Shown here piece after piece: positions 4,925 through 41,800 of a stretch of DNA of 57,449 nucleotides (position 1 is its first letter; every line of letters begins with the position of its first letter). The stretch covers positions 17,193,090 through 17,250,538 of the forward strand of contig NC_057751.1 of NCBI RefSeq assembly GCF_004010195.1, read 5' to 3'. Both the position numbers and the translations under genes were made by a program. Source of the stretch: Chiloscyllium plagiosum (lineage: Eukaryota). Below the pieces are notes generated by a model. The model had not been told where the DNA came from, made no database searches, and worked only from the letters and a program-made list of their open reading frames with translations.

Positions 4925-5660
4925 ATTAATCTGGATTAATACAATCCACTCCATAAAGGGAGTAACGAAGGACTATCTAATAAGCTACCTGGTGTGTCTG
5001 GCAATATTCTGCGATGTCATGACCAAATCCGAATACGCCAACTTTCCTTGGTCCTTTGCATGAATCCCATGTGGGCTGGTAATGAGAGTTCTAAACAGAG
5101 ACATCCACTGACTGGTAGTTGTTAAGATATAAATCCATTGAGTTTGCTAATATCATTTAAACAAGAAAAGAAATGAAGGAATGAATGAATGAAAGAAAGA
5201 AAAAAAACGAATGCATGAATACATTGTCATATGTATGTCACAGCAAAAAGAAAAACAAAAAAAAAATGCAGTGAAAAGCTTTGCAAAGTAGCCACTATCA
5301 TCTTTGTCTGGTCAGCATGTGAGAACAGACCAATCGTCTTGTGATGCATCTTTTCAACTGAGCACAAAATAATTACTGTAATAATGATGCCGACATTATA
5401 AATCAATACAGAAAAAAACCGTTCATTGTGAGCTTTGTTTTTCAACTGCATTTCGATTTTATGCCTTATTAAATAAGTATTGGAACACACAAGGACAAGT
5501 GCTTTTTGTCTATTTCCTGTGAGCTGTTCACTCCGCTGTTCTGAATAGTTACTGTGATCCTCTCACCATATATCTAATGCATTGGTGGATGCTTCATCAT
5601 TGGGATTTCGGAATCATACAAAGAGACTCCGAGGCTCCAGTAGAATAGTGAAGGAATTTT
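4925..5660 (+). pseudogene. Heavily decayed GPR139-like GPCR exon-2 relic
   Basis: Collinear frameshifted motifs match the intact paralogue at 16681-17552: GLSN..SYLVCLA (vs GLS..LYLLAMA), YANFPWSF..IPC..VLNR (vs YDYFSKSF..TPVC..LNR), IVICMSQQKEKQK/CSEK..ENRPI (vs VTICWQQKLKLKYCTEK..KNIPI), LFTPL, KRLRGS. Multiple stops and a (gaat)n insertion at ~5165-5220. Confidence 0.55.
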
Positions 5661-7199
5661 AAGAGCTAAATATCTCCTTAATTACTCACCACAGAGGGCA
5701 ATGGTCATTCATTGAGAAGTAGCTGGAGATTGAGTTTTCGTGACTGAACACCATAACATTCAGCAAAGTGCAATGATTAAAAGACGACAAAACAAAATAG
5801 AACAACCAGCAGCAACCCAGAGGGGACCATCAGAGAAAGAAACAATTGATGACTCTGATGATCCAAAGTTGACATGAATCATCCCAGCAACCTTTCATCA
5901 TCGGAACCATTAACAAGAACCCGTTGCATTCTGTCGTCTCAGTTCCGTTGTCATTGCAGCTGCTGACATAGAAGGCGCTGTTGCTGTTTGGAAATTAAAT
6001 TATGCAGGGAAACGTCAACTCTCAGATGCTTTCACCTCACCCAACCTTCCCAAGCCCACACATGACCACATCATTCTAAACTCTTTTCTTTTGAGACCGT
6101 ATATGACTAGACCTTAGTCGTTGAAACTGTTCTCCATGTCGAGAAGAAACCTGAATTGCGATCTGACAGATGTTTGCGAAATTATTAGTTGCCTGAATCG
6201 AGTAGAAGGGGGTGAACGTATGGACAAGAAATAGATGTAACCGATATAAATTGGTTTACGAAGGTAGTAGTGTGATATGAAGCAAATACATTTTATTTAT
6301 ACAGAGACTAGTGTATGGAAAAATGGTGTAGCAGGTACAATCGTGCATTTCAGAAGGACCATTGGATGCTTACTTGGATTGTATGGTCCACAAAGATATA
6401 GTGGAAAAGCAGGAGATCAGCGCTGGGGAATTGATCCAAACTAGATCTTAGAGCTGGCGTGATGAGATGAGTGGCTTCCATCTACACCGTGACTCATCTT
6501 TTGTTTTGTCTTCTCTGTTCCGCAGACCTCATTTCACCCTGCCCAACACACAGCAACAAATATCGCATTGCTTTTCCAAATATCCCCAAACAGGGGATTG
6601 AATTCGCCACCAAGTCTTTCCAAACTGTACCAACTTGAGGCGTTAATCCTTCTTCACTACTGAAGCTAAACATGCTGGACGCATGTGACAAAAGCAAAAA
6701 TTGCAAAAAAGATCATCAGTTCAGAAAGCACCCGAAGGCAGAGAGACAGAGTTATCCTTTCAGTCTCTGCTCCAACAATCGATACATGAAACTAGAGAGG
6801 AAGATCAAGAATATAAATAAAATATCATTGTCTAACATTATTACAAATTGAATGTAAATCGGGACAGAGATTAGAGTGGAAGGTCAAAAATTGAAAGGGC
6901 AAGAAAAAATATGCTCACAGAAATAGTTGAGCAGGAAACAGTTATTGGAAGGAATTGTTGAACATGATAACGGCCAATCATCCAACTTTATCCCAGTTCC
7001 ATATCTCTTCCGCCATGTCCTTTAGTTCCTTGAGTTCAGAAAAATAAATCTTCCTCCTTCTTGAAAGCATTAAATATACTGACCTTAGCCACTTTATGTA
7101 GCAGATAAATTCACAGGTTCATGAGCCTCTTGGTGAATCTCATCATTTCAACCCAGATTGCCCATTCCAGATCCTTAATCATTAATCCCTTATCTATTC

Positions 7200-7620
7200 T
7201 TCTGCATTTGACCCCAGAGAGAATGTTTTAATGATTTGAAGGTAGCTGCATGCTTTTTGCCAAGAAAAATTGGAGTTATTGGCATGAGAGTATTCGTTTG
7301 GACTCGGTAGATGAAACTACACACTAAGGCTGACACTTTGCATGCCTGCTCTTGAATTAGTTGATCGGAGAGTGCAGCAAAAAAATGAACCCTGCAAATT
7401 TTGGGCGCTGCACTTAGCCTGGAAGATTTTAATGTATAATGGAGTAATGCTTTAAATTTTATCCATTGTTTTGAATGTCCCAGGAATGTCCGATATGTCA
7501 GTATGAATATTCTTGATGCAATATCAATGTTAGCGTGCACACACCCCGGGAATACATGATGCAGAAAATGCGGAATCCTGAACCCTTTAGCTAACACGTG
7601 CTCTGATTCTTTGTTCTTCA
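7200..7620 (-). pseudogene. Possible decayed NLR NACHT-domain exon relic
   Basis: ORF 7190-7675 aligns loosely, from my memory of fish/shark NLRs, with the NACHT stretch: LAKG..F..VF, I..RI..IL, W...LL, CKVSALVCSFI (cf. C.VSDIVYSLI). Walker motifs are not intact. Confidence 0.35.
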
Positions 7621-8369
7621 AAAATGAAAACGTTGCTTCACCCTGTATCTTTTCCAGCTCTCGACCTAACCTCACAATGTCTGATACAGACAGTTTCGCG
7701 GAAATTTTAAGCTTTGTCGAATGCTGCTCTGCTCGTGTTCTAGAAATGTTTGATGTGGGCAGTTAAAATGGATTTTTAGGGCATATCTAACCCCATGCTG
7801 TATCTGCCCTGGGAGTGTTCAATGGGGATAATATTGTGGTAAACCTACTCGTTATCTAAACCCATGCTGTACATGTCCTGAGAGAATTTGATAGGGATGC
7901 TTCAGAAGGAGCACAATGTTGCATCGAAATCTATGCTGTCCTTTTCTGTGCAGAACACAGAAGGGGAAATCTATGCATGTTAAATGATTGAAAGAAGCTG
8001 CGTTCGCTATCCAACACAGTTCTGTCCCTGTCCTGAGAGCTTTAGATGGTAACGTTGCGAGGAAAGCTGTATTCTGTATTATACCCAAACCATGATTTAG
8101 CTGTGAAGGTCGTCTTGGGTACAGTGCAGAGATAACTTTACTTTCTCATTAGAAGTGTCCAGGGAGGCATATACTTTATTAATGCTGTTCTTGCCCATGA
8201 CCGTTTAAATAAATCACAGTGTAGTGTGACAACAATTCTATATCGAATTCCATGTTGTCCTTGTTTTGGGAGTGTTCGGTGTGATCTATGTACAGGAAAC
8301 GTTCTATGTTTCAGTCATTCAGGTAATGATAGTGCGACGGGCTAGATCAACATTATGCTCATTCATGCT

Positions 8370-8640
8370 TGCTTAAAGGGCAGTTTAAAAGTCAATCCCA
8401 AATCTTTGCGTCTGGAATCACATGCAGGCCAGGCAGGATAAGGATGGAAGTTTCCTTCCCTAACGAAATAAATAGATTTTTCGAATACCTTGACAGCTGA
8501 TTCATAGCTGTCATTGGACTGTGAATTTCGATTAAGTTCGCATTCCACAAACTGCCAAGGTAGGGTTTGAACCTGCTTTCTATGACATTACCCGGGGATC
8601 TGGAAAACACGCTTCCAATCATACCAGTAGGCTATCCTAA
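8370..8640 (-). mobile_element. Decayed tRNA-derived SINE (SacSINE/DeuSINE-like)
   Basis: ccaggcaggataaggatggaagtttccttccctaa and gggtttgaacctg motifs; same family as ~3250 and ~18640. Confidence 0.5.
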
Positions 8641-9540
8641 TTTTGCGTCAAACTGCTGCATCTTCCCTGAGCCGAGTGGCAGAACAGAGATTTCCCACTT
8701 TTACTTTCAGGAATGTCTACGTTCGTGCTATCTCTGCCACTGGACTTTTTGATGTGGACAATGCAGAACGAGCTTTACTTTCTCTTTCAAATTGCACTGG
8801 TAGCTTTTCTCTGCTGATCACCCAGTGCTGTAACTTTTCAAAGAGTGATGGATTGAGACACTGCTGAGAGGATATTAACATATATCAAACCAGGTGCTTT
8901 TCATATTCTGGGAATGTTAGATGCTGACTGTGCAGAGAGGTTTCCTATTTTGCAACTGCCTTGCAGTTGTTTGCTGCGTTCAGTGTAGACGATGTCCTTC
9001 TATTTAAAAGATCAGATTTCGTGTTGATCTGTATCTTATACAATGCTGAATCAGTTTGGTAGAGATTGCTGTGGCTGGAGTAGTGGAAATCTATTCAGCT
9101 ATTTGCACAGTTTTACTTTCCTGGGTGTGATTGATGTGGCACTGTATATGGAAATGTATTTTCCATTTAAAGATTAGAGAGTGTGATACTCTGCATTTCA
9201 CCCTGTGCTGTATTTCTCCTGGAAGTGTTTGATGACAACAGTGTAGACGCAGGTTTGCCTTTAGTTTGCAAGTGTGGAGACATTTACTCTGAATCTTACA
9301 TGTACCTAAACTGCAGATCCTTCGGGCAACAGTGTGGAGGGAGATTTATTTGGAAAGTATAGCCATCTTTAATGTATATCTGTCCCTGTTGTCAGAATGT
9401 TTGATGGAGGAGACTGTGAAGGGAGGTTTAATTTCAGTATAACAGTGCAGAGGGATTTTCCGTTTCAGTTTGATTCAGTTGGCAGAGCTTTACTCTGCAT
9501 TCTGCTCGGTGTGGTCCCTGTCATGAGAATGGTTAATCCG

Positions 9541-9826
9541 TAAAATCCCTGCAGTGGGGAAATAGGGCCTTTGGCCCAACAAGTACACACCGTCCCTCCA
9601 ATCCCACTACATTGACCACTGATTCATGCACCTAACCTACACCTCCCTGAACACTATGGGCAATTTAACATGTCCAATTCACCTAACCTGCACATATTTC
9701 GATTGTGGTGGGAAACCGGAGCCAACCCGAGCAGAGATGGCGAGGATGTGCAAACTCCAGACAGACAGTCGATGAACGCAAGTCCCGGGCGTTATGAGGC
9801 AGCATAGCTAACCACTGAGCCACCGT
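9541..9826 (-). mobile_element. HE1/V-SINE-type tRNA-derived SINE
   Basis: - strand starts acggtggctcagtggttagc (A-box), contains a V-domain-like tggagtttgcacatcctc..ctccggtttccc and a CR1-derived tail. Confidence 0.85.
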
Positions 9827-10369
9827 AGGGAAACAGTGAAGGGGTTCTTTATCATCAGTTTAAGAGTTGAGAGAAATTTAACCCCATGCTTTCCATATCA
9901 AAGGAGTATTTAATGGGGACAGTTTAGAGGGAGATTTACTCTGCATTTCACGTCATGTTTTCCCTGCTCTGAGAAGGAATTGCATTACACAACTTCCACT
10001 ACTATTGTGAGCAAGAATGTATATCAGGGCACAACCAAACAACCCTGAGTACGTTCTTTAAATTTGGAAATGCAATGCTTTGCAGCGAGAGGCAAAGGGA
10101 CAGTCATTGCTGAAAATAAATTGTGAGCTCCAAGATAGAAATCACAGCTTTTCCAACATCTTCTCTATTGATGCTTCTAACAAATTTTGATCACGTTTAA
10201 CATCACTATGTTATCAGACTCGCCTTTTTTTTTGAGAGAAGTAGATGTTTGTCAGAATACTTAATTGCAGTGGATTTTTAACTGATGAGGGAATTAACTC
10301 AACTGTCATGATGTGATGCTTCGAAATTCAAAAAAATAATATGAAACATGATGCAATCGCCCTGCAGGG

Positions 10370-10462: not shown

Positions 10463-10529
10463 ATGCATCTTCCAATTCAAACAATTCGGAAAGTCTTTTA
10501 CATGATCATAGGCATCATTGGAGTTCCTG
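10463..10529 (+). CDS. GPR139/GPR142-like GPCR, coding exon 1 (MHLPIQTIRKVFYMIIGIIGVP-)
   Basis: ATG at 10463, 22 codons plus 1 nt, then donor G|gtaaat at 10530. It splices in frame (phase 1) to the acceptor tttcccatag|TA at 16680/16681, completing TM1 as IGVPVNIVTIAIL. Confidence 0.88.
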
Positions 10530-16680: not shown

Positions 16681-17552
16681 TAAATATCGTGACAATTGCC
16701 ATCCTGTCTCGGGGAAATTGCGGACTTTCTGCCTGCACGACTCTCTACCTGTTGGCCATGGCAGCGGTGGATCTGCTGTTTGTTATCACTGAGGTCATAC
16801 TCCGTAAGATCAAATACGACTATTTCTCGAAAAGTTTCTTGGATATCACTCCTGTGTGTAGTTTTCACTATGCCCTAAACCGTGCAGTCATAGACTGCTC
16901 TGTATGGTTCACCATTGCTTTCACCTTCGATCGATTTGTCACCATTTGTTGGCAGCAGAAGCTTAAATTGAAATATTGTACTGAAAAGACTGCATATGTG
17001 GTTCTAGTTACCACGGGAATTCTACTCTGCTTAAAAAACATTCCTATTTACTTTAGATTTAGATCTTCAAAAATCATCAATAATGTACCGTGGTACTGTT
17101 CTAATACACAGGCGTATTACTATGATCCCGTATGGAGAGGATTTAAACGATTTGAAAAGGTTTTAACGCCAATACTCCCGTTCTTTTTAATTACATTGCT
17201 GAATACACTGACAATAAGACACATATTAAGCTCCAGTCGTATCCGCAAGCGACTAAAGAGCCAAAGGAATGAAGAGAAAAGCAGTGACCAAGAAATAGAG
17301 AGTAGAAGACAGTGTGTAATCTTACTCTTCGCCATATCCGCCAGTTTCATACTTCTGTGGTTGTGGTATATCTTAAATTACTTTAACATTGATTCTCCTT
17401 TGGATAGTGCTGGTGAATATACTTTCAGAGTTGTTGCGTATATGTTGCGGGATTTGAATTGCTGTACAAACTCCATTATTTATGTGGCAACTCTGTCCAA
17501 GTTCAGAGAACAATTCAGAAATGTAGCGAGATCTCTTTTTTATGTAAGTTAG
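16681..17552 (+). CDS. GPR139/GPR142-like class A GPCR, coding exon 2 (TM1-TM7); full protein 312 aa with exon 1
   Basis: Open frame with LSRGNCGLS, YLLAMAAVDLL (TM2), DCSVWFTIAFTFDRFVTIC (TM3, DRF), KYCTEKTA, LNTLTIRHIL, FILLW (TM6) and NCCTNSIIY (TM7). 67+872=939 nt including stop. Confidence 0.92.
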
Positions 17553-18040
17553 CCTGTTTATAAATAAGCAAAGGAACTTAAACAACCTAAGACCCAAAGG
17601 GTAATGGACGACAAATGATAACTGAAAGACTTAAGGATAAGGTGTCTTCAGTTGTAAATTGATGGTGATGAACAATTAGCAATAAGAGAAGATTAGGTGG
17701 AGAGATGATTATCCGAAGTAAACTAGCACCAAGACCGTGCATAAAGAAAAGGTACAAAATGTTGCAAAGTAAAGTACTAACATCAGTACTTTCAGTCACT
17801 GCAATGAACAGTGACCTTATTGGGAAATAAGTGACCTTTAAAGAATAGATTCAAAAGAGCCAGAATGAAAGCGAAGGTGCTGCACTGTAGAAGAGAAATT
17901 GATGAAACAGTGTCTCATCCAACTTGGCTGGTTAGAGTCGCAGCTTCTCACATCTGTTCATGAACACAAATAACATCCCTCCTCAACAAAGACTGTGTAT
18001 TCTGAAATCTTCATCTGAACCTTCATTACTTTAACAGACA

Positions 18041-18057
18041 TTATTTATTTAAATAAA
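18041..18057 (+). promoter_or_regulatory. Candidate polyadenylation signal with adjacent AU-rich element
   Basis: ttatttattta immediately followed by AATAAA (18052-18057) and a GT-rich downstream stretch, about 500 nt after the stop codon. Confidence 0.5.
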
Positions 18058-18639
18058 GAATTATTCTGTGTTGCTTCCATCTTTTCCTGCGAGATATTGG
18101 ACAGACACATTTACAGAACACAGATTGGGGCTATGGACCATGTGCAGCCAAATGGGATTACTTTCGAACGACATTATGGTTGGCACACATATGGTTAGCT
18201 GAAGAACTGATCTTGTTCAGTACTTTTAAACGTTCTTATATATCCCAGTCTATGGACAGGATGGAAATCCCGATTTCCAATGGTTATAAGTACCTCTGGA
18301 GTGGTCCGTATTTGTTTTTAGGTGGGATAGCAGCTGGGGTAGGAATGGAGGGGATTTATGGCAAGGATAAAAAGGCTGAGATACCATTAACCATAGATCG
18401 GGTCAAAAAAATTCAACCCTATTCAAGTAAACAATCTCAGGATGAAAGTCTTCATTTGTAGAATATCTTATTTTGCCTTAAAGAGAGCTTCAAGCATTGC
18501 TTGATTCATATTAGCATTGGGTGGCTTATAGTGAATGGTGTCTATGTTGATACTGACATTCAATATCCATCTTTAAAAGTCCTGCTGACACTTATGAATT
18601 CTCCACGTTACTATTGACTTGTTTTAGATCAGGTTAAAA

Positions 18640-19070
18640 AAAAACAGATTTCTCGACTTCATGGACACCAGTGAATTAGAATTTCTTTACACGTATTTAG
18701 ATGCTGGCTATTAGAATCGCTTTTAAGTTGTAGATTTTATTTTTATTAATTTTTAATTAATATTCGAACCCATTTCCCCAAAATATTGGCCTCGACCTCG
18801 GTTTACCTTGGCCAATGACTTCACCAGTGGATAATTGCTGTTCATCACAAGGTTCCTTCTTCCATTTCATTCAATCATTTTCTCACACATTCATACACTT
18901 ACTCTTTCAAATATTCTTGCCGTTTTTACCAGATACTTACTGTCACCCTTGCTGACACATACACACTCACTTACACGCTCTCGCTTTTCTCACTCAGGTA
19001 CCAACAATCTCAGCCGTACTTTCTTAAACGTACCTTCACTTGCACACACTCTCACTCACTCACTGAGATA
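18640..19070. repeat. Decayed SINE (-) followed by a CA-rich tract
   Basis: Same arrangement as 3250-3720 (atggacacc..agattttat..tattcgaacc..caatgac..ctgtt, then CA-rich). Confidence 0.45.
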
Positions 19071-20044
19071 ATCATTTTCACATACCGTATCTCTCCTGCT
19101 GATTGCAGTGTATATAGTGAAAGGCTAAGCAGATACATGGGCTGAATATACTGCATTTGCTCCCAAATGCTATGCAATTAAGTGACCTGAAACGAAACAA
19201 ATGTGAATTGGGGATCCCTTTTATTCATCCAGCAAGTGTTTATTGTATCAAAGTGACTAGGATGCATGTTCAACCGAGTTATTCAATCGGTCATTGGAAG
19301 ATTATTTTGATTGAAATAATGTACAAGGGTATGGAAAAAAAAAGAAGTTTGACACTGGTTGATGATGCTATTTTAACGAATCAGCACTGACAATATGTGT
19401 GAATCGCATCTTTTTGCACTCTATTGAATATATGCGACTGTCTTTAAATGAATCTCAGAAGATGACGTCCAACCATTACTGTGTTAAGGACATGAAATTT
19501 GAAAACAATCACAAGAGATCAACGGCACGACAAATATGGAAGTTCGTTTTGTGATTTGTTTGAATTGAAAAGGCTTTAGCGGCAACCTGCTGGGGAAACA
19601 ACTGTATTTTAACTAAAGGTTAAAAGTAATGAGTTAACAATCGCTAAATAAGCAGAATTAGTAAATAATTGTCATTAAAGAGACCATTTAATAAATAGAT
19701 AAAACAATTGGAAATTATCATCAGTAAAATGCTGTCCTTATCAAATAACATATTCGAAGATTGAAAACGTTCTACTGATTTATCTGAAGTGTCTAGAAAT
19801 ACAAGACGAAGTACAATTCGTGAGGGGGGTTTACAGCTATTACACGGTTCATTGCACTGTCATATCGGCTGATGAGGCATAACTTCGTCTATTCAACCTA
19901 ACTGACTCCAACTATTGAACGAGCGCAATGAATGTTCCAGATTGATTCTTGGTATGGTAGGTTGAAAGTTTGAATAGAGACCTAATCGGTTAGTGTTATA
20001 CTTAATGGATATGAGAAGAATACGAGAAACGTCCAGGAACTTCC

Positions 20045-20688
20045 TGTCATGACACGGGGTAAATCCTTCGGCTAATTTTACACCAAACTCACAGAAAAGC
20101 TCACCTCACTTTGTAATCTGGAGAAGAACTATCAAATCCCAATATTTACAAAACTGATTTCTTCTTTAACTGCAAGCAAAAGATAGGGAATATTCGACAA
20201 CAATTACACTGTCAGCCTACTTTGCCTGATTGATCTATCTATCTCCCACTCTACAACAATATGACGATCCTATTAAACTCCTCAATTAAGTTGTACAAAA
20301 AGAAAATCAAATTTCAAAACCATTTAGCTGTGTCTTCCTTTTCTATCTTCCTCTGTCGGTTTTCCTGTGTCGCCATTTCTTCAGTGTTCCGCTGCATAGA
20401 TTTCATATGAAGCAATAACTTTCAGAGAGCGATTATGCGATTTTAATGCCCCAAAATTATCATCTCATTAGTTTGATGTCGTCAAAATAATAAAATTCAA
20501 ATTCAATTGGATTTAAACTGATTGGTCAAATTCACATTTGTTGTGTAATATAGCATCTCAGCTCTAGGTGTTTGATTCATAGCCAATTGCTCCATTTTTA
20601 AAATTTTCAGCACACCCCTTACTTGTTAAGGCGATGCCATGTTTAGTTCTTTCTTAATGGTACAGTACACACCATCAAGTTCATAATA
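20045..20688 (-). repeat. 3' LTR of the Gmr1-like element
   Basis: Ends tgtcatgac.../...ttcataata, homologous to the ends of 25452-26170. Polypurine tract aaaggcggagg on - immediately adjacent (20689-20699). Confidence 0.7.
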
Positions 20689-23600
20689 CCTCCGCCTTTA
20701 AGAAAGAAAACGAACCATCATAATGAAAACAATCCTTCGTTTTCTTTTATATGCAATAACCACATTACCATGACATACATATGATTTAATCTAAGTTCAT
20801 ATTGACTTCTCCCCACATATATATATAAAACATTGAACAGGCGCCAATCTCATCTATACTTCATCGGTTACATCCGCGATTATGCATCTGTTGATACATT
20901 CTTACAAACTGCAACATGTACGACGATTTATAAAATAAACGCCTGTAACTTAAGACTCCAACTATACTCTCATGTTCTTGCCTTTAAAGTATTCCAGAAA
21001 TGTAGGAACATTTTGATACATGTGCACAATCATCTCCAACACATTGTTCATGACATAAACATTAAACAGTTGTCAGGCTAGTACCAAACTGACAAGTTCT
21101 TTTTCGATCTTAGAGTATTTTTTTTAGTGGAGTTTCGTTGAAAAGTAACCAACTGGCAGTACAATTCCCTCACCATCTTCCTCTAGCAGTACAACTCTAA
21201 TGCCTATTTCGCTGGCATCTTTCAAGGTCACAAAAAGTTTGATGTAGCTAAAACTGGTGTGAAGATTAATATTGCTTTTGCACTGTCAAATGTCTCCTGG
21301 CATTGTTCTGTCCAACTAAAGTGTGTGTTCTTCTTCAACAAATCTGTTTACATTGCCACGAGACTGTTGAAATTTGGAATGCATTTTCGATAAAATCTGC
21401 TCAATCCCAAAAATCGAAGCACCGCTTTCTTCGAGGTTGGTCGTGGAGTTTTGTCGATGGCCATCGTCTTTGCATTCCTTGGGGTCACACTTCCATGACT
21501 GAATTTGCGAATTCAATTTTGTTTAAGTTTATCACCATTTTCCTTCTATCAATAAGTCAAAGAGTTCTTCTAATTGTATCATGTGATCTTCCGAGTGCTC
21601 ATTAACGATCACTACATAGACTGCACAGTTTTTTTTAACCAAGCTTCAATTCTGTTGATGAGTCTTTGGAATGTGGCGGGTTTGTTCTTCAATCCAAAGG
21701 GCATCACTTTGAATTGGTACATTCCATTTAGGGGTTATAAGCATAGAGGTTTCTTTTGCATTCTCTGATAAAGGTACCTGCCAATAGCCACGCAGTAAGT
21801 CCAACTTGAAGATATAACTGCATTTTTCAATTCTCTCTGTATAGTCCTGCAATCTCGATGCTGAGTATGAGTCCGCTAATATTACAGCTTTGACCTTCTG
21901 ATACTCCACAGAAATTTGATGAGTCCTCTCAGGTTTTGGAACAAAGACAATCGGCGAACCCCACTTGCTCTGACTCGGTTCGACAATCTCATTTTTGAGC
22001 GTGGCCTTAACTTCCTACTGGACCTGTTGGACCTGGAAAGGATTAAGCTGGTAAGGGTGCGGTTTTATCGGAACTGTATTCCCTCCGTCTCCCTCATCCA
22101 CAGTAGCATAATCCTCCCCATCTGATTCCTACATATATCCTCATAGTGTTGTCAGAAACCTTTCAGCAGTGTTCTTTGCCCCTGAGACAGGCAGCTTACT
22201 AACCTATACCACTCCTTAAGGACCGCCTCAGCGTTTAATAGATTTGGAGTCACATCAACCTCCACAACATCTAGATTTGATTCCTCACTCTGAGGGGCGG
22301 TAACTAGCTCCTTTTTTTTCCGTTTCCTTCTCCCTGTTATCAGAACGTTTCAAAATATTCACAGGACATACCCGATAAAGGTAATTTTTACAATCTGGCA
22401 TTTTTACCAAATGGTTCACTCGAATCAACTGCTTCTCAATTTGATAGGGACCACTAAATCTGGCCTTGAAGGAATATCCTGTCGCTCGTAACGATGCGAA
22501 TACGTAATCTCCACGGGAAAATATCGGAATTTCAGATTTTGGATCTGCCCTCTTCAGGTGGTGTTTCGCTAACTTACCGACCAAATCAATCTCCCCCTCG
22601 TCTCAGAGACAAAATCCAAGTGTGAGATCTCCAACCTTGGTCCTGTTAATCTCATTTTAATCAATTACAAAGGGATTCTCACTGCATGTCCAAATATTTA
22701 CTCAAATAAAGTAAACTGAGTACATTAGCGTAGGGCATCTCTAATGGCAGACAGTGCGAATGGGATATGTTTATCCAAAACATTCTGGTAACACGGACAG
22801 GATGCTCTCAACATGGCCTTCCGGGTTTGATGCCACCATTCTGAAGTGCCCTGGGGTTCAGGATGATACGCACTTGATATAACGTGCTGCATAACTTGAC
22901 TTCGTTAAAAAGCCTGGCAGTAAAATTAGAACTTTAGTCTGAACTTTAATCTCTTCACGTAGCTCATAACTCGTGAAGAAAGCTCCTAACTCTTCTCTCA
23001 CCCTTTTTGTCTTAATGCTCCATAATGGAATTACCTCCAGAAATCTGGTAAACACTTCCACGATGGTTAGCAAGTACGATCCCATTTTTAGTTTTCAGGA
23101 CGGGCCCTACACAATCAACCATAACCTATGTGAAAAGATCTTCGAATGTGGGAATTGGCAACAAGGGTGATGGTTTTTATTACTGACTGTGGCTTACCTT
23201 CCTGTTGGCATGTATAATACATATCACAAAAGTTAACCACATCCTTTTGCATCCCAAGCCAATAGAACTGTTTTCGTACTTTTGCCTGAGTCTTCTGTAC
23301 ACATAGGTCACTTCCTACAGGTCGTTCATGTCCTTCCCATAGCACTTCCTGTCTGTATGTTACCAGCAACACTTTCTGGTACACTTCTGCCCATTACTTC
23401 TCTGCACTAACCTGCAGTGTTCTCCATTTTAGTCTTAAGAATCTGTCTTTGATAAAATAACCTCCACAATATTCTCTGTCTCCTTTTATGAGCATGCATC
23501 AGCATAACGTTCTTTTATTGTTTCGCCTTTCTGCTGTAATCCCATTAACCAATCACTTCTGTCTGACTTTGCCACTCTACTGCTCGTCTCAATTATTGAA

Positions 23601-24014
23601 TATTCTATTGACCCATTTCAATTCTTATGAGATCTGGAAGTGTATTTTTAAAATCCTCCAGCAGAAGAATCTCTAATCAGGCCTCATAGGTTTAAGGCCC
23701 GCATCCATCTGTCAAATTTGCTCAGCTTAATTCTTGCAAACTCAGCATAAGTCTGACCTGATTCCTTCTTTATGCTTCTGATTCGCTGTCAAGACACTTC
23801 CGGTACAAAGTCATGAGCAATCAAAATAGCCTGTTTGACGTCTGCATAATCTCTTGGCCCGTCTTCTGACAACACTGACAATATCTCATTAGCTCTGCCT
23901 ATTAGTTTCTTCTGATCAAGCATTACCCACAAGTCCTCTGATCATCCTGTCTGCCTAACTAATTTTTGAAAAAAAAAGAAGGCTTCGATATTTTTCTAAT
24001 CAACATGTTGTAAC

Positions 24015-24740
24015 ACTAGAGTAGTGATAAATGGCTCCATTTTGGAATGGCAGGCAGTGACCAGTGGGGTACCGCAGGGATCAGTACTGGGACCACATCT
24101 TTTTACAATATATGTTAATGATATAGAAGATGGTATTAGCAATAACATTAGCAAATTTGCTGATGATACTAAGCTGGGTGGCAGGATGAAATGTGATGAG
24201 GATGTTAGGAGATTACAGGGTGACCTGGACAAGTTAGGTGAGTGGTCAGATGCATGGCAGATGCAGTTTAATGTGGATAAATGTATGGTTATCCACTTTG
24301 GTGGCAAGAACAGGAAGGCAGATTACTACCTAAATGGAATCAATTTGGGGATCTGATTGAGACGTATAAGATTATGAAAGGATTGGACACTCTGGCAGCA
24401 GGAAACATGTTTCCGCTGATGGGTGAGTGCCGAACCAGAGGACACAGCTTGAAAAAACGAGGTAGACCATTTAGGACATAGATGAGGAGAAACTTCTTCC
24501 CCAAGAGAGTGGTGGCTGTGTGGAATGCTCTGCCCGGGAGGGCAGTGGAGGCCCAGTCTCTGGATTCATTTAAAAAAGAGTTGGATAGAGCTCTCAAGGA
24601 TTGTGGAATCAAGGGTTATGGAGATAAAGCAGGAACAGGATACTGATTAAGGATGATCAGAGATAATCATATTGAATGGTGGTGCAGGCTCGAAGGGCAG
24701 AATGGCCTACTCCTGCACCTACTGTCTATTGTCTATTGTG
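24015..24740 (+). mobile_element. CR1 LINE fragment (internally deleted) inserted in the Gypsy gag region
   Basis: SGVPQGSVLGP..SKFADDTKLGG (RT catalytic motif) and a (gtctatt)n tail. Confidence 0.9.
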
Positions 24741-25428
24741 CATTGTCTAACATTTTAACATAACTCTGTATTCACCACCTCGTCTCTTCTGTTGTATCCA
24801 TGTCGTCGTATGCTGTTAATTTGACTTTCTTGATTAAGTTGCAACTTCTGAAGTTCGAACATTCTCTTCATTTTTTCTTCTCACTCCCTTTTCTCTCCCT
24901 TTCTTCTCTCTCTTTACTCAGCTGAGAACCTTTGCAGTCTTTCTTTTCCCTCTCTCTCTTTGTTTACCTTCTCACTCCATTTTCCTCTATTGTAATTTAA
25001 GTTAATTAGAACTGTGCTGTTCTTTTCTGTTTCCCAGACATACATAAGTGTATTGGTAATTCCCTGACAATTTTAGCTTTACTTTTTCTCCTTGCTTAAA
25101 CCCCAAAATAACCTCTTTATGAATTCTAAAACGATGGTCTTTTCTTTGTGAACTTTCTCGGCAAATTCTGGAAACATTTTCAAACCCCACAACCTCTTCA
25201 GTAAGTTTAGGAACCGTTTCTCTCACTTCTTCATTCAACTAACGACAAATAACAGAGAAAAGGAAAACCAATTGTCTCGTCTAAGTTTTATTTAAAGATC
25301 TAGGACACTAATCTGCAAGCGTTTACATTTGCCAGGATCTTTCCCACCAGGATCTTTCCCATCAGGATTTGCCAGGATCTTTTCAAATCTGTCCAAATCG
25401 CAGACTGGATCTGTCCCAACCTGCCCAA

Positions 25429-25448
25429 ATCAAGGACACGAACCCCCA
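25429..25448 (-). promoter_or_regulatory. Primer-binding site (tRNA-Pro-like) of the Gypsy element
   Basis: - strand TGGGGGTTCGTGTCCTTGAT directly after the 5' LTR, a degenerate form of the tRNA-Pro PBS TGGGGGCTCGTCCGGGAT. Confidence 0.6.
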
Positions 25449-25451
25449 AAG

Positions 25452-26170
25452 TGTTTTCACATGTGGTTAACTCTTTTTTTTGAATGAAAAGCATAGAACA
25501 GCTTAACTTACCCCGTAATCTGTTAAAGCAGAAGAGACAGACAACAACCCAAATTCCAATATTTTAAAACAAAACGAGCAACTTTATTCTTTAACTCCAT
25601 GAAAAAAACTTTCTACAGATGTAAAACCCCTTTCTCTCAAAGATTGGTTATCTACCTCCCATCACATAGCAACATATTACCCAATAAACCCGAATAAATT
25701 TGCAGCAAATCAGTTTTCAATACCCTATCACGGGTGTCGCCTTCGAGTGTCGAACTTCCTCTATTTGCAGATGTCCCTGGCTCGTCTTTGGTCTTCTTCT
25801 GCACACTGTTTTTGCAAGGAAAAAGTTACCTTTTCGAGAGAAGGGTTGCAGGCAGTCTGCATGACAATGGCAGGTGGTGCTCTTCTTTGGCTAACTGCCC
25901 AAAATTCCTGCTTTTTATAACCTAAACATCGGATTGTCTCAATGGTTCGATGTTGTCAAAACAGTAAAAGTGAAAATCGGTTAGGTTTATTATTTTGGAG
26001 CTTAATTTCAACTGATAGGCTGAATTCGCCCTACTGTGAAACCAAGTCAATACCTAAGGAACAGCCAAAATGTTACATCGTTAAATATTCCATCACATTT
26101 TGCGACATGCACGTTTTGCCAGCTTTTACTTTGTGTAAAACGTTCAGTACATGGCTTCAACTTCATAACA
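25452..26170 (-). repeat. 5' LTR of the Gmr1-like element
   Basis: TG...CA termini (tgttttcac.../...ttcataaca), collinear but divergent similarity to 20045-20688. Confidence 0.7.
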
Positions 26171-26231
26171 CAAATGTCCTGTTAGGTAGAACAACAGTTA
26201 TTTTAACATTTTCAGGTAACCTGGCATTTAC

Positions 26232-26401
26232 TCAAGTGCCTGTATTTTGCAATTCGAGTTATTCAGAACCGTAAACGGTAGGTTCACTTCTGTATCTCCC
26301 AGTTTATTGTTACCTTGATTCAGATCCTTCAGTGACTGGTTTCTCCCGAGAGTCGAGGCAAGCTCCTCACCACAAACATCATGATACCATTGTTGAAGAG
26401 T
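26232..26401 (-). pseudogene. NLR pseudogene, ribonuclease-inhibitor-type LRR exon (170 nt, 1-nt deletion from the canonical 171)
   Basis: cctcag|A..GA|gtaaat. With one frameshift it translates LFNNGI/DVCGEELASTLGRNQSLKDLNQGNNKLGDTEVNLPFTVLNNSNCKIQAL. Confidence 0.88.
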
Positions 26402-26557
26402 CTGAGGATCAGATACAAATACGAAAGGGAATCAGATAATAAAAGCATAATAAGAACAAATCCCAGTGAATGCTGATAACTCTGCGCTTAATATCAGTAA
26501 TAATACGAAGTGACAAACATTCAGTTATTAAAAATACACATTCAATCAGGTAGTTAT

Positions 26558-26644
26558 GGCAATTTTTGTTTCCTACAGTCTGGATTTCTTAGAGTCACAA
26601 AGAATACGTTCACTCCTGAATCTCCCAGTTCATTGTAACCCAAT
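26558..26644 (-). pseudogene. NLR pseudogene, 87-nt LRR exon with mutated donor
   Basis: tttgtttag|A TTG GGT TAC AAT GAA CTG GGA GAT TCA GGA GTG... = LGYNELGDSGVNVFFVTLRNPDCRKQKL. The donor reads ataact instead of gtaact. Confidence 0.88.
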
Positions 26645-27978: not shown

Positions 27979-28320
27979 TTCAATGCCTGGCATTTGTTCA
28001 AACACATCCTGGTCATTGTAGACCTTCACAACCAATGATGCAACTTTTTAAATCAAGGGGTTTTACTGTCGCACAGAGATCAATGGCCTGGAATGGGATC
28101 AGAAATTCAATCGGGGAGAGTTGTAACTAGCTAACCCAAGTGTTTGCATAGATCTCACTGTGGTCTGAGCCAGCTCTGTATTCTCAGACTCAAATAGATA
28201 GTGACATATGTTCACGAGGTTCCTCCTTACTCTTTCAGTTTTGATATTTCCAAACTGTGCTTTTTACTTCTCGTTCACACAGTCAATCAGGCAACAGTTT
28301 GTTTGATGAAACAATGTACT
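27979..28320 (-). pseudogene. NLR pseudogene, 3' end of the large NACHT/HD2 exon
   Basis: FHQTNCCLIDCVNEK*KAQFGN..RRNLVNICHYLFESENTELAQTTVRSMQTL/LQLSPIE..IDLCATVKPLDLKSCIIGCEGLQ*../NKCQAL, then donor gtaatt at 27978. Phase 2, compatible with the next exon. Truncated upstream by the Rex1 element. Confidence 0.85.
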
Positions 28321-28329
28321 GATAAAAGG

Positions 28330-36100: not shown

Positions 36101-37335
36101 TAATCCAAACCTCCAACTCACCCTCAATGCCATACCTCCGTATTTTTTGCAGTAGTCTGCATCCCCTGCATTTTGCTACCCCATTCGATGCATCCTAATT
36201 CTTGTGTAATCGCATTATAATTGCCCTTGCCACATCGATAAGTCTTGACCTGTGGCTCGTACCTATCCCTTTCCATCGCTAATCGAAACGTAACTGAATT
36301 ATGCTCACTCTCTCTAAAGTGCTCACCTGCAACTAAATCAAACACCTGGCCTGTTTCACTACCAAGCGCCAGACCCAGCGTGGCCTCCCCTCTTGCCTGC
36401 TGTTCAACATACCTTGTCAGGAAGCCCTCCTGTGCACATTGAATCACCTTGCCTGTTCTTAACAAAATATCTAAACCCTGGCATCTACAACATCCATTCC
36501 TCACCCTGCTCCATCCATGTCTCCGAAATGGCAACAACATCGACGTCCCAGGTACCTATCCATGTTGCAAGCTCACCTCCCTTAATTCGGGTACTTCTGG
36601 CGTTGAAGTAGACACACTTCAAACTACTTCGTTGTCTGCCAGCACATTCCTGTGACCCGGAAATCCTGTCCCTGTTCTTCCTACTCTCATCCTCCTGTGC
36701 ACTGCAACTACTCCTCTGGTTCCCATCCTCCTGCTGAGCTAGTTTTAACCCACTTGAATAGCACCAACAAATTTCCCACGCAGAATATATGTGCCCCTCT
36801 TGTACAAGTGAAGTCTGCCCTGTTTGTACAGGTCCCACCTTCCCCAGAATGAGCACCAATTATGAAAGAACCTGAAACCCTCCCTCCTGCAACATCCTTG
36901 CAGCAACGTGTTCAGCTGATATCTCTCCCTATTCCTTGCCTCACTATCACGTGGCACGGATAACAGACCAGAGATAACAACTCTCTTTGTTCTAGCTCTC
37001 AGCTTCCATGCAAGTTCCCTGAAATCCTGCCTTACATCGCTATCCCTCTTTCTACCTATGTCTTTGGTACCTACATGGAAAACGACTTGAGGCTGGTCAC
37101 CTTCACCGTTCGGGACCCCAAAGATACGATCCGAGACATCACGGAACTTGGCACCTGGGAGGCGACACACCACCCGCGAGTCTCGTTCGTTCCCAACAAA
37201 CCTTCTATCTGAGCCTCTAAATATCGAGTACCCAAATGACTAACACTCTCTTTCTTTCCCTACTTCCTTCTGTGCAACAGGGACAAGATCTGAGCCCCAC
37301 TACATACTTCTCGTAAGTCGTCCCCCTCAACCGTG
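33195..37335 (-). mobile_element. Near full-length CR1 LINE (ORF1 esterase region, ORF2 endonuclease and RT), decayed
   Basis: ORF1 SGNH-like LPGAKFRDV..VVFHVGTKDIG (36745-37173), endonuclease YFNARS..VVAISETW, RT SGVPQGSVLG, and a (ttctatg)-like tail at ~33195-33215. Confidence 0.9.
35262..36155 (-). mobile_element. Young CR1 LINE nested within the older CR1, 5'-truncated and internally deleted
   Basis: GVPQGSVLGPLLFVIFINDL..SKFADDTKVGG; (ttctatg)n tail; 3' end nearly identical to 3012-3227. Confidence 0.9.
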
Positions 37336-37426
37336 AAGGATCATATGTTATGGAGAATGACTGCTTGACTAGTATTCATGTAATGAAAGTTTGAAAACAC
37401 TAATTGCCACCAACCTCTTGACATTT

Positions 37427-39100
37427 ATAGAATCATGGAGTCATAGAGATGTACAGCATGGAAACAGGCCACTCAGTCTAACCCGTCCATGCCGACCAGA
37501 TTTCCGAACCCCATCTTGTCCGACCTGCCAGCACCCAGCCCATATCCCTTCAAACACTTCCTTTTCATATACCCATCCAAATGCCTCTTAAATGTTGCAA
37601 TTGTACCAGCCTCCACTACTTCTTCCACCACTTGGCAGCTCATTACATACACGTACCACCCTCAGTGTGAAAATGTTGCCCCGTAGGTCTCTTTTATATC
37701 TTTCCCCTCACACCCTAAACCTATGCCCTTTAGTTCTGGACTCCCCGACACCAGGGAAAAGACTTTGCCTATTTACCCTACCCATGCCCTTATAATTTTG
37801 TAAGCCTCAATAAAGTCACCCCTCAGCCTCCGACGCTCCAGGGAAATCAGCCCCAGCCTGTTCAGCCTCTAGCTGTAGCTCAAATCCTCCAAATATGGCA
37901 GCATCCTTGTAAAACTTTTCTGAATCTTTTCACGTTTCACAACATCTTTCCGCTAGTAAGGAGATCCAAACTTCATGCAATTTTCCAACAGTGGCCTAAC
38001 CAATGTCCTGTGCAGCCGTAGCATGACATCCCATCTCCTGTACTTAATATTCTGACCAATAAAGGAAAGCATACCAAACGCCTTCTTCACTCTCCTAACT
38101 GCGATTGCACTTTCAAGGAGCTATGAACCTGCACTTCAAGGTCTCTTTGTTCAAAAACACTCCCTAGTACCTTACCATTATAGGTCCTGCGAAGAATTGA
38201 TTTCCCAAAATGCAGCACCTGGTATTTATCTGAATTCAACTCCATTTGCTACTTCTCAGCCCATTGGCCCATCTGGTCAAGATCCTGCTGTAATCTGAGG
38301 TAACCCTCTTCGCTGTCCATTACAGCTCCAAGTTTGTTATCAACTGCAAACTTACTAGTTGTACCTCCTTTGCTCGCATCCAAGTCATTTATGTAAATGA
38401 CAAAAAGTAGAGGACCCAGCACAGATCCTTGTGGCACTCCCCTGATCACAGACCTCCAGTCTGAAAAATTACCCTCCACCACCACCCTCTGTTTTCTACC
38501 TTTGAGCCAGTTCTGTATCCAAATGGCTAGTTCTCCCTGTATTCAATGAGATCTAACCTTGCTAACCAGTCTCCCATGGGGAACCTTGCCGAACGCCTTA
38601 CTGAAGTCCATATAGATCACATCTACTGCTCTGCCCTCATCAATCCGTTTTGTTACTTCCTCAAAAAGCCCCACCAAGTTTATAAGACATGATTTCCCAC
38701 GCACAAAGCCATGTTGAAAATCCCTAATCAGTCCTTGCCTTTCCAAATATATGTACATCCTGTCCCTTAGGATTCCCTCCAACAACTTGCCCTCCACTGA
38801 CGTCAGGCTCACTGGTCTATAGTTCCCTGGCCTTCCAGTCTTCTTCCACCTCACCTGTGACGATTGGTGATACAAATATCTCAGCAAGAGGCCCAGCAAT
38901 CACTTCTCCAGCTTCCCACAGAGTTCTCGGGTACTTCCGATCAGGTCCTGGGGATTTACCCACCTTTACCTATTTCAAGACATCCAGCACTTCCTCCTCT
39001 GAAATGTGGACATTTTGCAAGATGTCACTATCTATTTCCCTACAGTCTTTATCTTCCATATCCTTTTCCACAGTAAATAATGATGCAAAGTACTCATTTA
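37427..39100 (-). mobile_element. CR1 LINE ORF2 fragment
   Basis: NYRPVSLTS..QHGFVRGKSCLINL..YMDFSKAF and GVPQGSVLGPLLF motifs; CR1 3' UTR. Confidence 0.9.
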
Positions 39101-40582
39101 CGATTTGTTCTGATTCCATGAATAAGTGCCTTCTTTGTTATTCAACCACTTCCTGGAATCATATCATTCCAATTACACCTTTCGGAATGTCAAGTATTTA
39201 GCGCCGTAACACCCGCTTCGACCTACACATGTCCAACCTTACCATATTGGACCAGTGCTGTGACACTTCAAATACTTATCCAAGAATCGTTTAAAGATTC
39301 TAAGTCTTCCCGCCTCATCTATCCTTCAAGGCAATGCATTCCAAAGCCGCAACACTCTCTCAGTGGAAACAAATGCTTCAATTCCACATTAATCCGCCTA
39401 GTTTTCAACTTAAACATACATCACCCGGACCTTTTTCGCATCCTTGCAAGTAAGTATTCCACCACCGGTTGTGACATAACAGTGGGAGCTAAACTCTGAT
39501 CAAATCCGAAGATTTATGACTCTGGATTGTGTATTGCAGACATCTACCTCGGTGGGATGAAAGGTTGCTTAATGCGAACCGTGCAGAGACAGAAAAATCA
39601 ATTTTAAAATAGCAGTGCACCTGTCTTGTGAGAACAAAAGAGGATACTGCGGACGGAGATTTACTTTACATTTAACTCAGTGCCCGAGGAGTAATTGATG
39701 GAGCCAGTGCATAGAAGTGGCGTGGAATAACCAAATGATTCACTCGACACCCAGAAATTCATTTCTAAAATCAAAGTGTTTATTGAAGTTGGTGGGAAGA
39801 AGCCCTCGGAAAATACAAACAGCTTCTTCTGCAAACAAAGACAAATGCACATTGTTCTACTGTGGTTTCATTCCATCTTTAACATTTACAAAGCAGTCAT
39901 ATTATTAATTAATTATATGCATCTCCAGTCAGTCGACTAATGTCACTGAATGCCGGAGATGGGCAGGCATGTCGTCAATCCTCAGTCTCCAATGTCTCAT
40001 GATGTTTCCCCCTCTCTCTTATCTTACTTCTTATAGATTTTCGAAATCGACACTGGATTCAAGTATATTCCTGCCTAGACATTTCCCAGCTGCACCAGAT
40101 AAACTGTCAAATAACTGGATACTTGCCTATCATCTCGGGTCAATTTAAATTGTTTATTCACCTTGTTGCAGTAAATACAATATAAACTCATTTTTACTAT
40201 CTGTTATAATATCTGTTCTAATAGAGTTATGTGATCACAACTACTGTTAAAATTCTTTTCCCAACAAAGCTATGAACATTTTCTTTCTTGCTGGATTTAT
40301 GAGACAACTCTGTCTCTATTCTTGGCTGTCTTACATAGTGTTCATTCAAACCATACTCCAATGTCTGCCAGGTTCTGTACCTACGACTCACGTCTCCACG
40401 TAATGATGTGGGAGCTGCTTTTCGTGTCTGAGGCTGGTTTGCTCGCATAAGTTTATATGAATCATTTCCCTTAATTTTTGTTTTGTATACAGATGAATCA
40501 ACAATTCCTTCAGAAACTGACATCTACGACTATTTGAAGGATACTGGAGAATACTATTAGTATTGTGGACAGATTCACTCAT

Positions 40583-40800
40583 TAAATGTCGTGTGGGTAT
40601 TTATGTCTTATGCAGACACAACTGCAGCTGCATATTCCATGTCAGTAAAGTCACCGTGGATCTACAACCATACTATTACTGTTCTTGCGAAGACTACATT
40701 AATCAAATATTTTCCCAAGCATGGGAACTACTGTTCGGCATTTTCTGCTACATTAGGCATGGGCAGCCATTAGCCATTTTGTGCTGCCCAGTCATTGGCA
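40583..40800 (+). pseudogene. Possible decayed GPR139-like exon-2 relic (TM1-TM3)
   Basis: taaatgtcgtg vs taaatatcgtg at 16681; VGIYVLCRHNCS vs VTIAILSRGNCG; VDL; TVLAK..KYFP vs EVILRK..YFS. Ends at a 69-bp satellite unit (~40810-40890). Confidence 0.4.
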
Positions 40801-40929
40801 CCCGGAACAAGCTTTACTCTACATGTAACCTCATGATGCAACTGTCCTCGAAGTGTTTGATAGGACAGTGTAAAGGGAGGTTATAAAGTAGTAGAGGGCA
40901 TGTAATCCAATTTGGTACTGGCTGGTGGA

Positions 40930-41800
40930 ATATTTTATGATGACATTGAAAAGAGAAATTCACTTGCTTTCTAAAAAAAAATCGTGGATCTTTATTCTCT
41001 ATTGAAGCATGTGTGATACCTGCATAAGATATGTTTGTTGGCGAGAGTGCAGTGAGATTTACTTGGAGAACGAACACTGTGGTGTAGTTGTCCTGGGATG
41101 ATTTTGGGGTTTTCTGATCAATAATGAAACGCATGGTGAAAATAGCACGGGAATTTCAAAAGGGTTTCTAACCATTGCTAAAGGTTTAGACGATGATCCA
41201 ACCTGAATGTCCAGAAGTCGCATGACGTTTTGCTCCCTATGAAACCTACCTATTATCCTATCGAAATTTATAATCACGTCAAATCTTTTCATGAGGCCTC
41301 AAAAGTTCGAAGCCTAGCTTGGTCCAGTGATCTGTCCTTGGCAGAGTGAAAGTTTTTTGTTGTCACAATCTAGTTGAAAAGTCTAAAATTCAAGTATTTT
41401 TCTGAAAAAAAAGAACTACTCTATTGTTTATTGACATGTTCTTTTAAAAAAAACAATGTTATGATTCTTTCAAGTCTGCAACACAGACGTAAGTATTCCA
41501 TACCTTCAAACTCTGTGTGTTAGATGGCGCAAAAGTGGCAACATTACAAACTGTTCACTTCACTCATTCAAATGCACGTGAAAATTAAGGCTAATTCAGT
41601 TCAATTCTAGATTCCAGGAATTTAACACTGGGGTTGTATCATTTCGACCTCTTGCCACTGCATCCTAATGGTCCATTTATCATTCTGGTGAATCAAAAGC
41701 ATGTGGAATCCTAATTCCAGTCTCTTTATTGCTTTTTACAATTAAACCATAAATGTTATTCCTGGGCTAAGATCAAATGGCTAAAGTAAACAAAGCTGAA
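40930..41800 (-). pseudogene. Heavily decayed NLR NACHT-domain exon relic
   Basis: Collinear degenerate motifs on -: TGIR (Walker A region), KFLE..RIELN..P*F, FEGME..ADLKR (Walker B FDGLD), IVTTK (sensor 1), LAMVRNP, RKPQNHPRTTT, SIENKDPR. Confidence 0.5.

What the first reader, a model, noticed from the sequence alone, without database searches (positions are those of the whole stretch)
4925..41800. Repeated convergent GPR139-like(+)/NLR(-) cassette: a candidate co-duplicating receptor cluster
Three times in succession a + strand GPR139-like gene or relic is followed by a - strand NLR relic: 4925-5660 with 7200-7620; the intact gene 10463-17552 with 26232-28320; and 40583-40800 with 40930-41800. 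The 69-bp satellite recurs near the first and third pairs. Seen: the middle pair is clear; the outer pairs are degenerate by-eye matches. Established: NLRs are innate immune sensors, and mammalian GPR139/GPR142 respond to aromatic amino acids. Inference: the two families expanded together as one birth-and-death unit, hinting at an immune or chemosensory role for the orphan GPCR family. I am not aware of this linkage being described, but I cannot search.
Basis: partly seen in the sequence, partly recalled or inferred. Interest (0 to 1): 0.75.

Follow-up and report, generated by a model that had tools for sequence, protein, structure and literature searches.

The report
Shark receptor cluster carrying dead NLRs
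This window holds one intact GPR139-like receptor gene and one broken immune-sensor (NLR) gene rather than three repeated pairs; the two families share the same gene-dense neighbourhoods across this shark genome, and the already-dead NLR was likely copied as a passenger in large duplicated blocks.

Summary
Only the middle pair is real: an intact two-exon 312-aa class-A GPCR (10463-17552, +) and a truncated, disabled NLR (26232-28324, -). The four outer 'relics' score at background (z at most 1.4 against 17-45 for true relics), as do the paralogues tested; 40583-40800 is a dispersed repeat. The window lies in a 1.25-Mb mosaic of segmental duplications with 44 GPCR hits (16 with an open exon 2) and 11 NLR relics, all dead. 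GPCRs and NLRs were copied together in blocks, but the NLR already carried shared stops and frameshifts (dN/dS 0.76-1.4), only 2 of 11 NLRs face a convergent GPCR (4.6 expected), and the second convergent pair joins genes of different age (dS 1.27 against 0.35). What survives is regional linkage: 31 of 44 shark-expanded NLR loci, but 0 of 19 conserved NLR loci, lie within 250 kb of a listed GPR139-like gene. This resembles zebrafish chromosome 4 and mammalian NLRP3 among olfactory receptors, and says little about receptor function. The scan noted this GPCR expansion often on other DNA; my look-ups found no note on its NLR linkage. In passing: 39 near-identical 'copies' of window DNA ending at 47921 are probably assembly artefacts.

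The parts
10463..10529 (+). GPCR exon 1 (ATG to phase-1 donor)
16681..17552 (+). GPCR exon 2; with exon 1 an intact 312-aa class-A receptor of the elasmobranch 'GPR139-like' family
   Evidence: dN/dS 0.16-0.24 against three intact paralogues
17908..20438 (.). low-copy spacer between GPCR and NLR, four copies in the cluster, which marks the duplicated block
20650..26170 (-). decayed LTR-retroelement-like insertion directly 3' of the last surviving LRR exon (limits approximate); junction shared by four other NLR relics
   Evidence: Integrase_H2C2 E=2e-12, RVT_1 E=3e-4 below cut-off; dispersed genome-wide
26232..26401 (-). NLR LRR exon B (relic)
26557..26644 (-). NLR LRR exon A (relic)
27980..28324 (-). 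3' end of the NLR NACHT exon (end of HD2, first LRR); 2 stops and 2 frameshifts; the 5' part of the exon is deleted at about 28330
4925..5660 (+). claimed GPCR relic 1: not supported; low-copy non-coding DNA with two paralogues in the cluster
7200..7620 (-). claimed NLR relic 1: not significant; one short weak match at 7306-7351 not seen in two paralogues
40583..40800 (+). claimed GPCR relic 3: part of a dispersed repeat, no GPCR similarity
   Evidence: 28 of 40 scored matches cover this part only, on many chromosomes
40930..41800 (-). claimed NLR relic 3: not supported; low-copy non-coding DNA with five old paralogues in the cluster
7784..9920 (.). diverged 69-bp satellite array
47124..47800 (.). 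second 69-bp satellite array, not adjacent to any GPCR/NLR pair

Best explanation
The window is one piece of a shark multigene cluster in which an intact GPR139-like receptor gene lies tail-to-tail with a broken NLR gene, and the pair was likely copied passively inside large segmental duplications after the NLR had died. Shown: one real pair, ten more NLR relics and 43 more GPCR hits nearby, block duplications holding both gene types, lesions shared between NLR copies, neutral NLR and purifying GPCR divergence, regional co-location genome-wide. Inferred: unequal crossing-over between abundant repeats drives the duplications; selection keeps a subset of GPCR copies; the expanded NLR clade and the GPCR family share the same duplication-prone chromosome regions, and one GPCR branch probably moved between chromosomes in blocks that also held NLRs.
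For: Map of 1.25 Mb: 44 GPCR rows, 16 with an ORF of at least 285 aa, 10 NACHT-exon loci and 1 LRR-only relic. All 10 NACHT loci carry 2-13 stops and 2-24 indels and form one clade, support 1.00. Window relic and its copies share lesions: 2 frameshifts and 2 stops with the copy at 17.696 Mb; that copy shares 4 frameshifts and 2 non-CpG stops (one beside the P-loop) with the copy at 18.142 Mb. dN/dS 0.76-1.4 for 9 relic pairs, 0.21-0.35 for 5 intact NLR pairs, 0.16-0.46 for 10 intact GPCR pairs. Duplicated chains hold GPCR and NLR in several arrangements, mostly same-strand. Nearest 3' GPCR convergent for 2 of 11 NLRs, 4.6 expected; distance not shorter than random, p=0.20. Of four copies of the spacer block only the window keeps the pair together: one is split by 88 kb with both genes dead, one has the NLR without a same-age GPCR (dS 1.27 against 0.34-0.36), one has a dead GPCR (dS 0.25) and no NLR. 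Regional linkage: 31 of 44 against 0 of 19 within 250 kb; 22 of 44 against 0 of 19 without the query picked beside an NLR; 12-15 of 22 against 0 of 16 neighbourhoods; no closer than random within contig C46, p=0.32.
Against: Outside the mapped block convergent neighbours outnumber same-strand ones (9 against 4 within 100 kb, p=0.27; 14 against 6 within 250 kb, p=0.12; incomplete GPCR list). In 5 of 7 NLR copies whose 3' flank I fetched elsewhere (two of the five are duplicates of one block, three were chosen because I had seen the arrangement) the nearest GPCR is convergent at 7-38 kb, including an intact/intact pair 10 kb apart on C46; the other two had none within 37-40 kb. One GPCR branch is far more often near NLRs than another (18 of 52 against 4 of 60 outside C46, p=3e-4, clusters not independent). 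An assembly gap lies beside the GPCR of the second convergent pair, so that join is uncertain. One genome only.
Confidence: 0.8

Rival explanations
1. An ancestral convergent GPCR/NLR block was the unit that seeded NLR copies on new chromosomes, and intact pairs are kept together by shared regulation; the window shows a decayed descendant.
For: Convergent GPCR 3' of NLRs on C46 (3.05, 3.52, 3.56, 7.79 Mb) and C42 (18.65 Mb); 9 against 4 and 14 against 6 convergent to same-strand; enrichment of one GPCR branch near NLRs.
Against: Not significant; partly chosen after seeing the pattern; between NLR and GPCR at those loci only repeats align with the window's intergenic DNA; two intact NLRs have no GPCR within 37-40 kb; 9 of 11 are same-strand in the fully mapped block.
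Confidence: 0.13
2. One reading: three successive convergent cassettes inside this window.
For: A short in-orientation NLR-like match at 7306-7351 exceeded all 300 null tiles; the satellite lies next to the first position.
Against: No signal at the other three positions or in the 7 to 9 paralogous stretches tested; no homology among the three segments; 40583-40800 is a dispersed repeat.
Confidence: 0.02
3. The regional co-location is pure coincidence of two abundant families, with no shared history.
For: The GPCR list is incomplete (197 positions; about 8,000 first-look candidates per search), so much more than 1.7% of the genome may lie near a copy.
Against: Conserved NLR loci as control give 0 of 19 within 250 kb; shared duplication chains are seen directly.
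Confidence: 0.05

Closest known systems
Zebrafish chromosome 4 NLR-B30.2 array (bioRxiv 10.1101/022061; passages read)
   Same: An expanded NLR family interspersed 'in an irregular pattern' with other large multigene families in a duplication hot spot.
   Different: There the neighbours are multi-zinc-finger genes and RNA arrays and the NLRs number in the hundreds; here the neighbours are class-A GPCRs and all 11 NLRs of the mapped block are dead.
Mammalian NLRP genes beside olfactory-receptor clusters (NLRP3 at ZNF496-OR2B11-TRIM58; non-eutherian NLRP-OR52I1; bioRxiv 10.64898/2026.04.26.720791; passages read)
   Same: NLRP-type genes embedded among members of a large class-A GPCR family.
   Different: Single NLR genes in conserved synteny, with olfactory receptors; not a jointly duplicated mixed array and not GPR139-like receptors.
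Whale-shark NLRP-related expansion (PMC8455134; passages and section 40 read)
   Same: A shark-expanded NLR clade under birth-and-death evolution; the clade here is probably the same (not tested by a joint tree).
   Different: The passages read give no genomic context and do not mention a GPCR linkage.
Human GPR139 (PDB 7vug, 9m42) and GPR142
   Same: Best PDB match of a close homologue (E=3e-7, full length); databases name the family 'probable G-protein coupled receptor 139'.
   Different: The window's own exon-2 protein matches GPR139 only at E=0.003, behind galanin receptor 2; it is one of hundreds of copies, not an orthologue, so the aromatic-amino-acid ligand (recalled) cannot be carried over.

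Membership tests
Selected co-duplicating convergent GPCR/NLR cassette | Several copies of the pair inside the window | tested here: not met
Selected co-duplicating convergent GPCR/NLR cassette | Both genes copied within one block at least once | tested here: met
   window 17.185-17.247 Mb against 17.572-17.722 Mb at 80-81%, now split by 88 kb; other chains with same-strand GPCR and NLR
Selected co-duplicating convergent GPCR/NLR cassette | Both genes functional when copied | tested here: not met
   shared frameshifts and stops, dN/dS near 1 in NLR copies
Selected co-duplicating convergent GPCR/NLR cassette | Convergent adjacency enriched over a null | tested here: not met
   2 of 11 in the mapped block, 4.6 expected; 9 against 4 elsewhere, p=0.27, incomplete list
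Selected co-duplicating convergent GPCR/NLR cassette | Matching divergence of paired genes | tested here: not met
   GPCR dS 1.27 against NLR dS 0.34-0.36 for the two convergent pairs
Selected co-duplicating convergent GPCR/NLR cassette | Same pairs kept in other elasmobranchs; co-expression | not testable with these tools
   no relative genomes held; no RNA test obtained
Mixed birth-and-death multigene cluster | Intact and dead copies side by side, made by segmental duplication | tested here: met
Mixed birth-and-death multigene cluster | Unrelated expanded families share neighbourhoods | tested here: met
   31 of 44 against 0 of 19 within 250 kb
Class-A (7tm_1) GPCR | PF00001 over cut-off, DRY-like and NPxxY-like motifs | tested here: met
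   63.8 bits, cut-off 30.5; DRF and NSIIY in the translation (motif names recalled)
GPR139 orthologue | High similarity to GPR139, single copy | tested here: not met
   E=0.003; 135 of 135 scored genome matches are 53-100% identical family members
NLR (NACHT-LRR) | NACHT, winged helix, HD2 and LRR exons | tested here: inconclusive
   Only the HD2 end and LRR exons survive in the window and give no Pfam hit; its copy at 17.696 Mb spans nearly the whole exon and the intact relative L044 has PF05729, PF17779, PF17776. A relic of an NLR, not a functional one.

The most novel reading that the evidence does not exclude
One branch of the huge shark GPR139-like family and the shark-specific NLR expansion spread across chromosomes together from an ancestral tail-to-tail block and share regulation in barrier tissue, which would make that branch a set of surface innate-immune or microbial-metabolite sensors linked to inflammasome-type NLRs.
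Probability: 0.1. Interest if true: 0.65.

Novelty: new member of a known kind. Interest (0 to 1): 0.3.

Why it matters
It removes a claimed functional cassette and replaces it with a measured, apparently unreported regional linkage between the shark NLR expansion and a very large orphan GPCR family. That linkage helps to map where shark gene families are born and die, and singles out one GPCR branch for expression tests, but by itself it does not tell an immune from a chemosensory role. The side result warns that this assembly contains near-identical dispersed 'copies' that mimic a young mobile element.

Tried and rejected
Pfam scan of all six frames of the claimed relics found nothing relevant, but it also missed the true relic, so it is no test. 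A repeat-like match between NLR locus L036 and window 42179-42566 first looked like a shared NLR intron; no NLR sequence lies where it would predict. Collinear DNA between the window's intergenic region and the NLR loci at C46 7.79 Mb and C42 18.65 Mb is the dispersed LTR-like element with different junctions, so it is not counted as shared descent. An apparent shared stop at codon 397 is an alignment artefact beside an 11-bp deletion, and the one at 507 is ambiguous in the 18.142-Mb copy; both dropped for that copy. Expression: no RNA holder listed; two single-cell RNA runs (about 2 and 6 in 100 of each read) laid no reads, which is no test. A LINE-tail-like hairpin at 47870-47930 does not fold better than shuffles. 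The 3' flanks of further intact NLRs (C7, C37, C12, C46 10.8 Mb) were not obtained, so orientation there rests on the incomplete list. Literature: ten searches; none listed a paper on a GPR139-like expansion in sharks or its linkage with NLRs; the library lacks most subscription papers, and I opened no supplements, where gene-family tables may mention it. PMC11979771 and bioRxiv 10.1101/2022.10.17.512540: term searches only; no NLR mention in either, and their GPCR passages do not concern this family.
Full report
Setting. The window is G000:C42:17193090-17250538 in a 3.56-Gb genome. The best 120 of 840 protein matches to its receptor all come from sharks and rays, so this is an elasmobranch. 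Labels such as G209 or N221 give the place on C42 in kb above 17,000.

What is in the window. Exons 10463-10529 and 16681-17552 join over GT..AG sites to a 312-aa ORF with Pfam 7tm_1 at E=2e-17. On the - strand, 27980-28324 matches a DNA profile of seven intact NLR exons at E=1e-47, followed by two LRR exons. This relic has 2 stops and 2 frameshifts in 116 codons, has lost the 5' part of its exon at about 28330, and its last LRR exon abuts a dispersed LTR-retroelement-like insertion.

The four outer relics. tblastn with ORFs of 30 GPCR loci and of 21 NLR loci, protein profiles and DNA profiles gave no significant hit at any of them. Profiles that included the local decayed copies scored known weak relics at 44 and 101 bits, but the claimed ones at background; the one exception is 1.9 bits over 46 bp at 7306-7351, above all 300 null tiles (best 0.6) yet absent from both paralogues. 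Smith-Waterman against shuffles gave z from -1.0 to 1.4 for the four positions and seven paralogous stretches, against 45 and 17 for controls. 40583-40800 belongs to a dispersed repeat (28 of 40 scored matches). The three claimed cassettes share no significant DNA similarity. The satellite array lies beside the first position, but 5.3 kb from the third, and occurs at 9 places in the 1.65 Mb fetched.

The wider cluster. In 17.11-18.36 Mb (67 kb of it N) I found 44 GPCR rows, 35 longer than 380 bp and 16 with an ORF of at least 285 aa, plus 10 NACHT-exon loci and one LRR-only relic. All ten NACHT loci are disabled and form one clade against seven intact NLRs (support 1.00). A repeat-filtered self comparison shows a mosaic of duplicated chains at 66-95% identity, several holding both gene types, mostly on the same strand. 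So joint duplication happened.

Was the pair the unit? The block GPCR-spacer-retroelement-NLR has four copies by its spacer. The window keeps the pair. The copy at 17.572-17.722 Mb (80-81%) has both genes dead and split by 88 kb. The copy at 18.14-18.15 Mb has the NLR and the spacer, but homology stops 370 bp short of the receptor's end; the convergent receptor there (G1161) lies 7 kb on, behind repeats and an assembly gap, and differs from the window's receptor by dS 1.27 while the NLRs differ by 0.34-0.36. The copy at 18.23 Mb has a dead receptor at dS 0.25 and no NLR. N221 and N695 share 2 frameshifts and 2 stops; N695 and N1141 share 4 frameshifts and the stops at reference codons 126 and 447, which are not CpG sites. 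dN/dS is 0.76-1.4 for nine relic pairs, 0.21-0.35 for five intact NLR pairs and 0.16-0.46 for ten intact GPCR pairs. The NLR was therefore dead before these duplications (inference from shared lesions), and selection acted on the receptors. The nearest 3' GPCR is convergent for 2 of 11 NLRs, with 4.6 expected, and is not closer than random (p=0.20).

Genome-wide. I took positions on contigs C1-C51 from three GPCR searches (197 positions; unplaced scaffolds and the mapped block left out) and two NLR searches. The 44 loci of the expanded clade were chosen by about 40% identity or more to the query, with two at 34% and two; a second expanded group on C46 at 8.5 and 9.7-10.75 Mb was left out; 19 other, conserved-type NLR loci served as control. 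Within 250 kb of a listed GPCR lie 31 of 44 against 0 of 19 (p=8e-8); without the query picked beside an NLR, 22 of 44 against 0 of 19; by neighbourhoods 12-15 of 22 against 0 of 16. Within C46 the NLRs are no closer to GPCRs than random points (p=0.32). The linkage is thus regional. Against a purely passive reading stand a non-significant excess of convergent neighbours outside the block (9 against 4, p=0.27; 14 against 6, p=0.12), convergent receptors 7-38 kb from five of seven NLR copies fetched elsewhere, three of them chosen for that reason, and a difference between receptor branches (18 of 52 against 4 of 60 near an NLR outside C46, p=3e-4 with non-independent clusters).

The receptor's name. 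A close homologue's best PDB match is GPR139 at E=3e-7; the window's exon-2 protein reaches only E=0.003 and ranks galanin receptor 2 first. All 135, 131 and 133 scored matches of the three searches are family members, from about 8,000 first-look candidates each. It is a large elasmobranch family related to GPR139, not its orthologue. Earlier notes of this scan describe the same expansion and suggest a smell-receptor role (unchecked here); look-ups for the NLR linkage returned nothing.

Comparison with what is known. NLRs interspersed with unrelated expanded families are described for zebrafish chromosome 4 (bioRxiv 10.1101/022061, passages), and NLRP genes beside olfactory receptors for mammals (bioRxiv 10.64898/2026.04.26.720791, passages). 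A shark NLRP-related expansion is described in PMC8455134 (passages and section 40). My ten searches listed no paper on the GPR139-like/NLR linkage. This is a new instance of a known kind of mixed cluster.

Side result. Window DNA ending at 47921 has 39 matches at 99% on most chromosomes, all ending at that base and starting at variable points; one reaches back to 36445. In 5 of 5 copies examined the 3' side continues into the same position of a LINE and its tail; these tails are 97-98% alike (one pair identical) although the captured parts give equal scores; the three 5' junctions seen also read as LINE coding sequence (my reading). In four other runs contigs cross 47921 without that junction among the loose ends shown, and depth over 46100-47920 is mostly 2-40 (one bin with a repeat reaches 87) against 230-1630 for the true repeat next to it (contig depth is a rough measure). 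Mis-filled gaps inside LINE copies are the likely cause (about 0.8); a very young transduction family private to the assembled animal is the rival.

Verdict. Observation partly confirmed, interpretation partly supported. One real pair, no repeated cassette, passive co-duplication of a dead NLR, and a real but regional linkage of two expanded families. Interest 0.3.

Noticed in passing
window 36445-47921: 39 dispersed matches at 99% that all end at 47921 and run into the same LINE position; other runs show single-copy depth and no such junction. Probably assembly gap-fill artefacts that mimic a young 5'-truncated retro-element.
   Followed up: yes
   Followed up: no
G000:C46:3.03-3.07 Mb (L213-L215): An intact GPCR exon and an intact NLR exon face each other 10 kb apart; the best place to test shared regulation.
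   Followed up: partly
G000:C42:17.5449-17.5462 Mb (L130): A truncated NLR relic abuts directly on an inverted copy of the window's GPCR exon 1 region (83%), a rearrangement breakpoint joining the two families.
   Followed up: no
G000:C42:17.550-17.574 and 17.642-17.667 Mb: A 23-kb inverted duplication at 94.6%, each arm with one intact and one dead GPCR facing each other.
   Followed up: no
window 51347-54256: A diverged array of about 41/81-bp units; the stretch has 97% copies at 17.298-17.301 and 17.316-17.319 Mb.
   Followed up: no
window 856-1038 and 57228-57433: Near-perfect inverted repeats (87 bp at 99%, 98 bp at 90%) with 9-10 bp spacers, apparently head-to-head short repeats.
   Followed up: no
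window 7193-7762 (-): A 190-codon stop-free frame overlapping the claimed first NLR relic; no Pfam match.
   Followed up: partly
G000:C46:9.7-10.75 Mb: A second, more divergent expanded NLR group of about a dozen loci (about 30% to the query), also among GPR139-like genes; left out of the counts.
   Followed up: no
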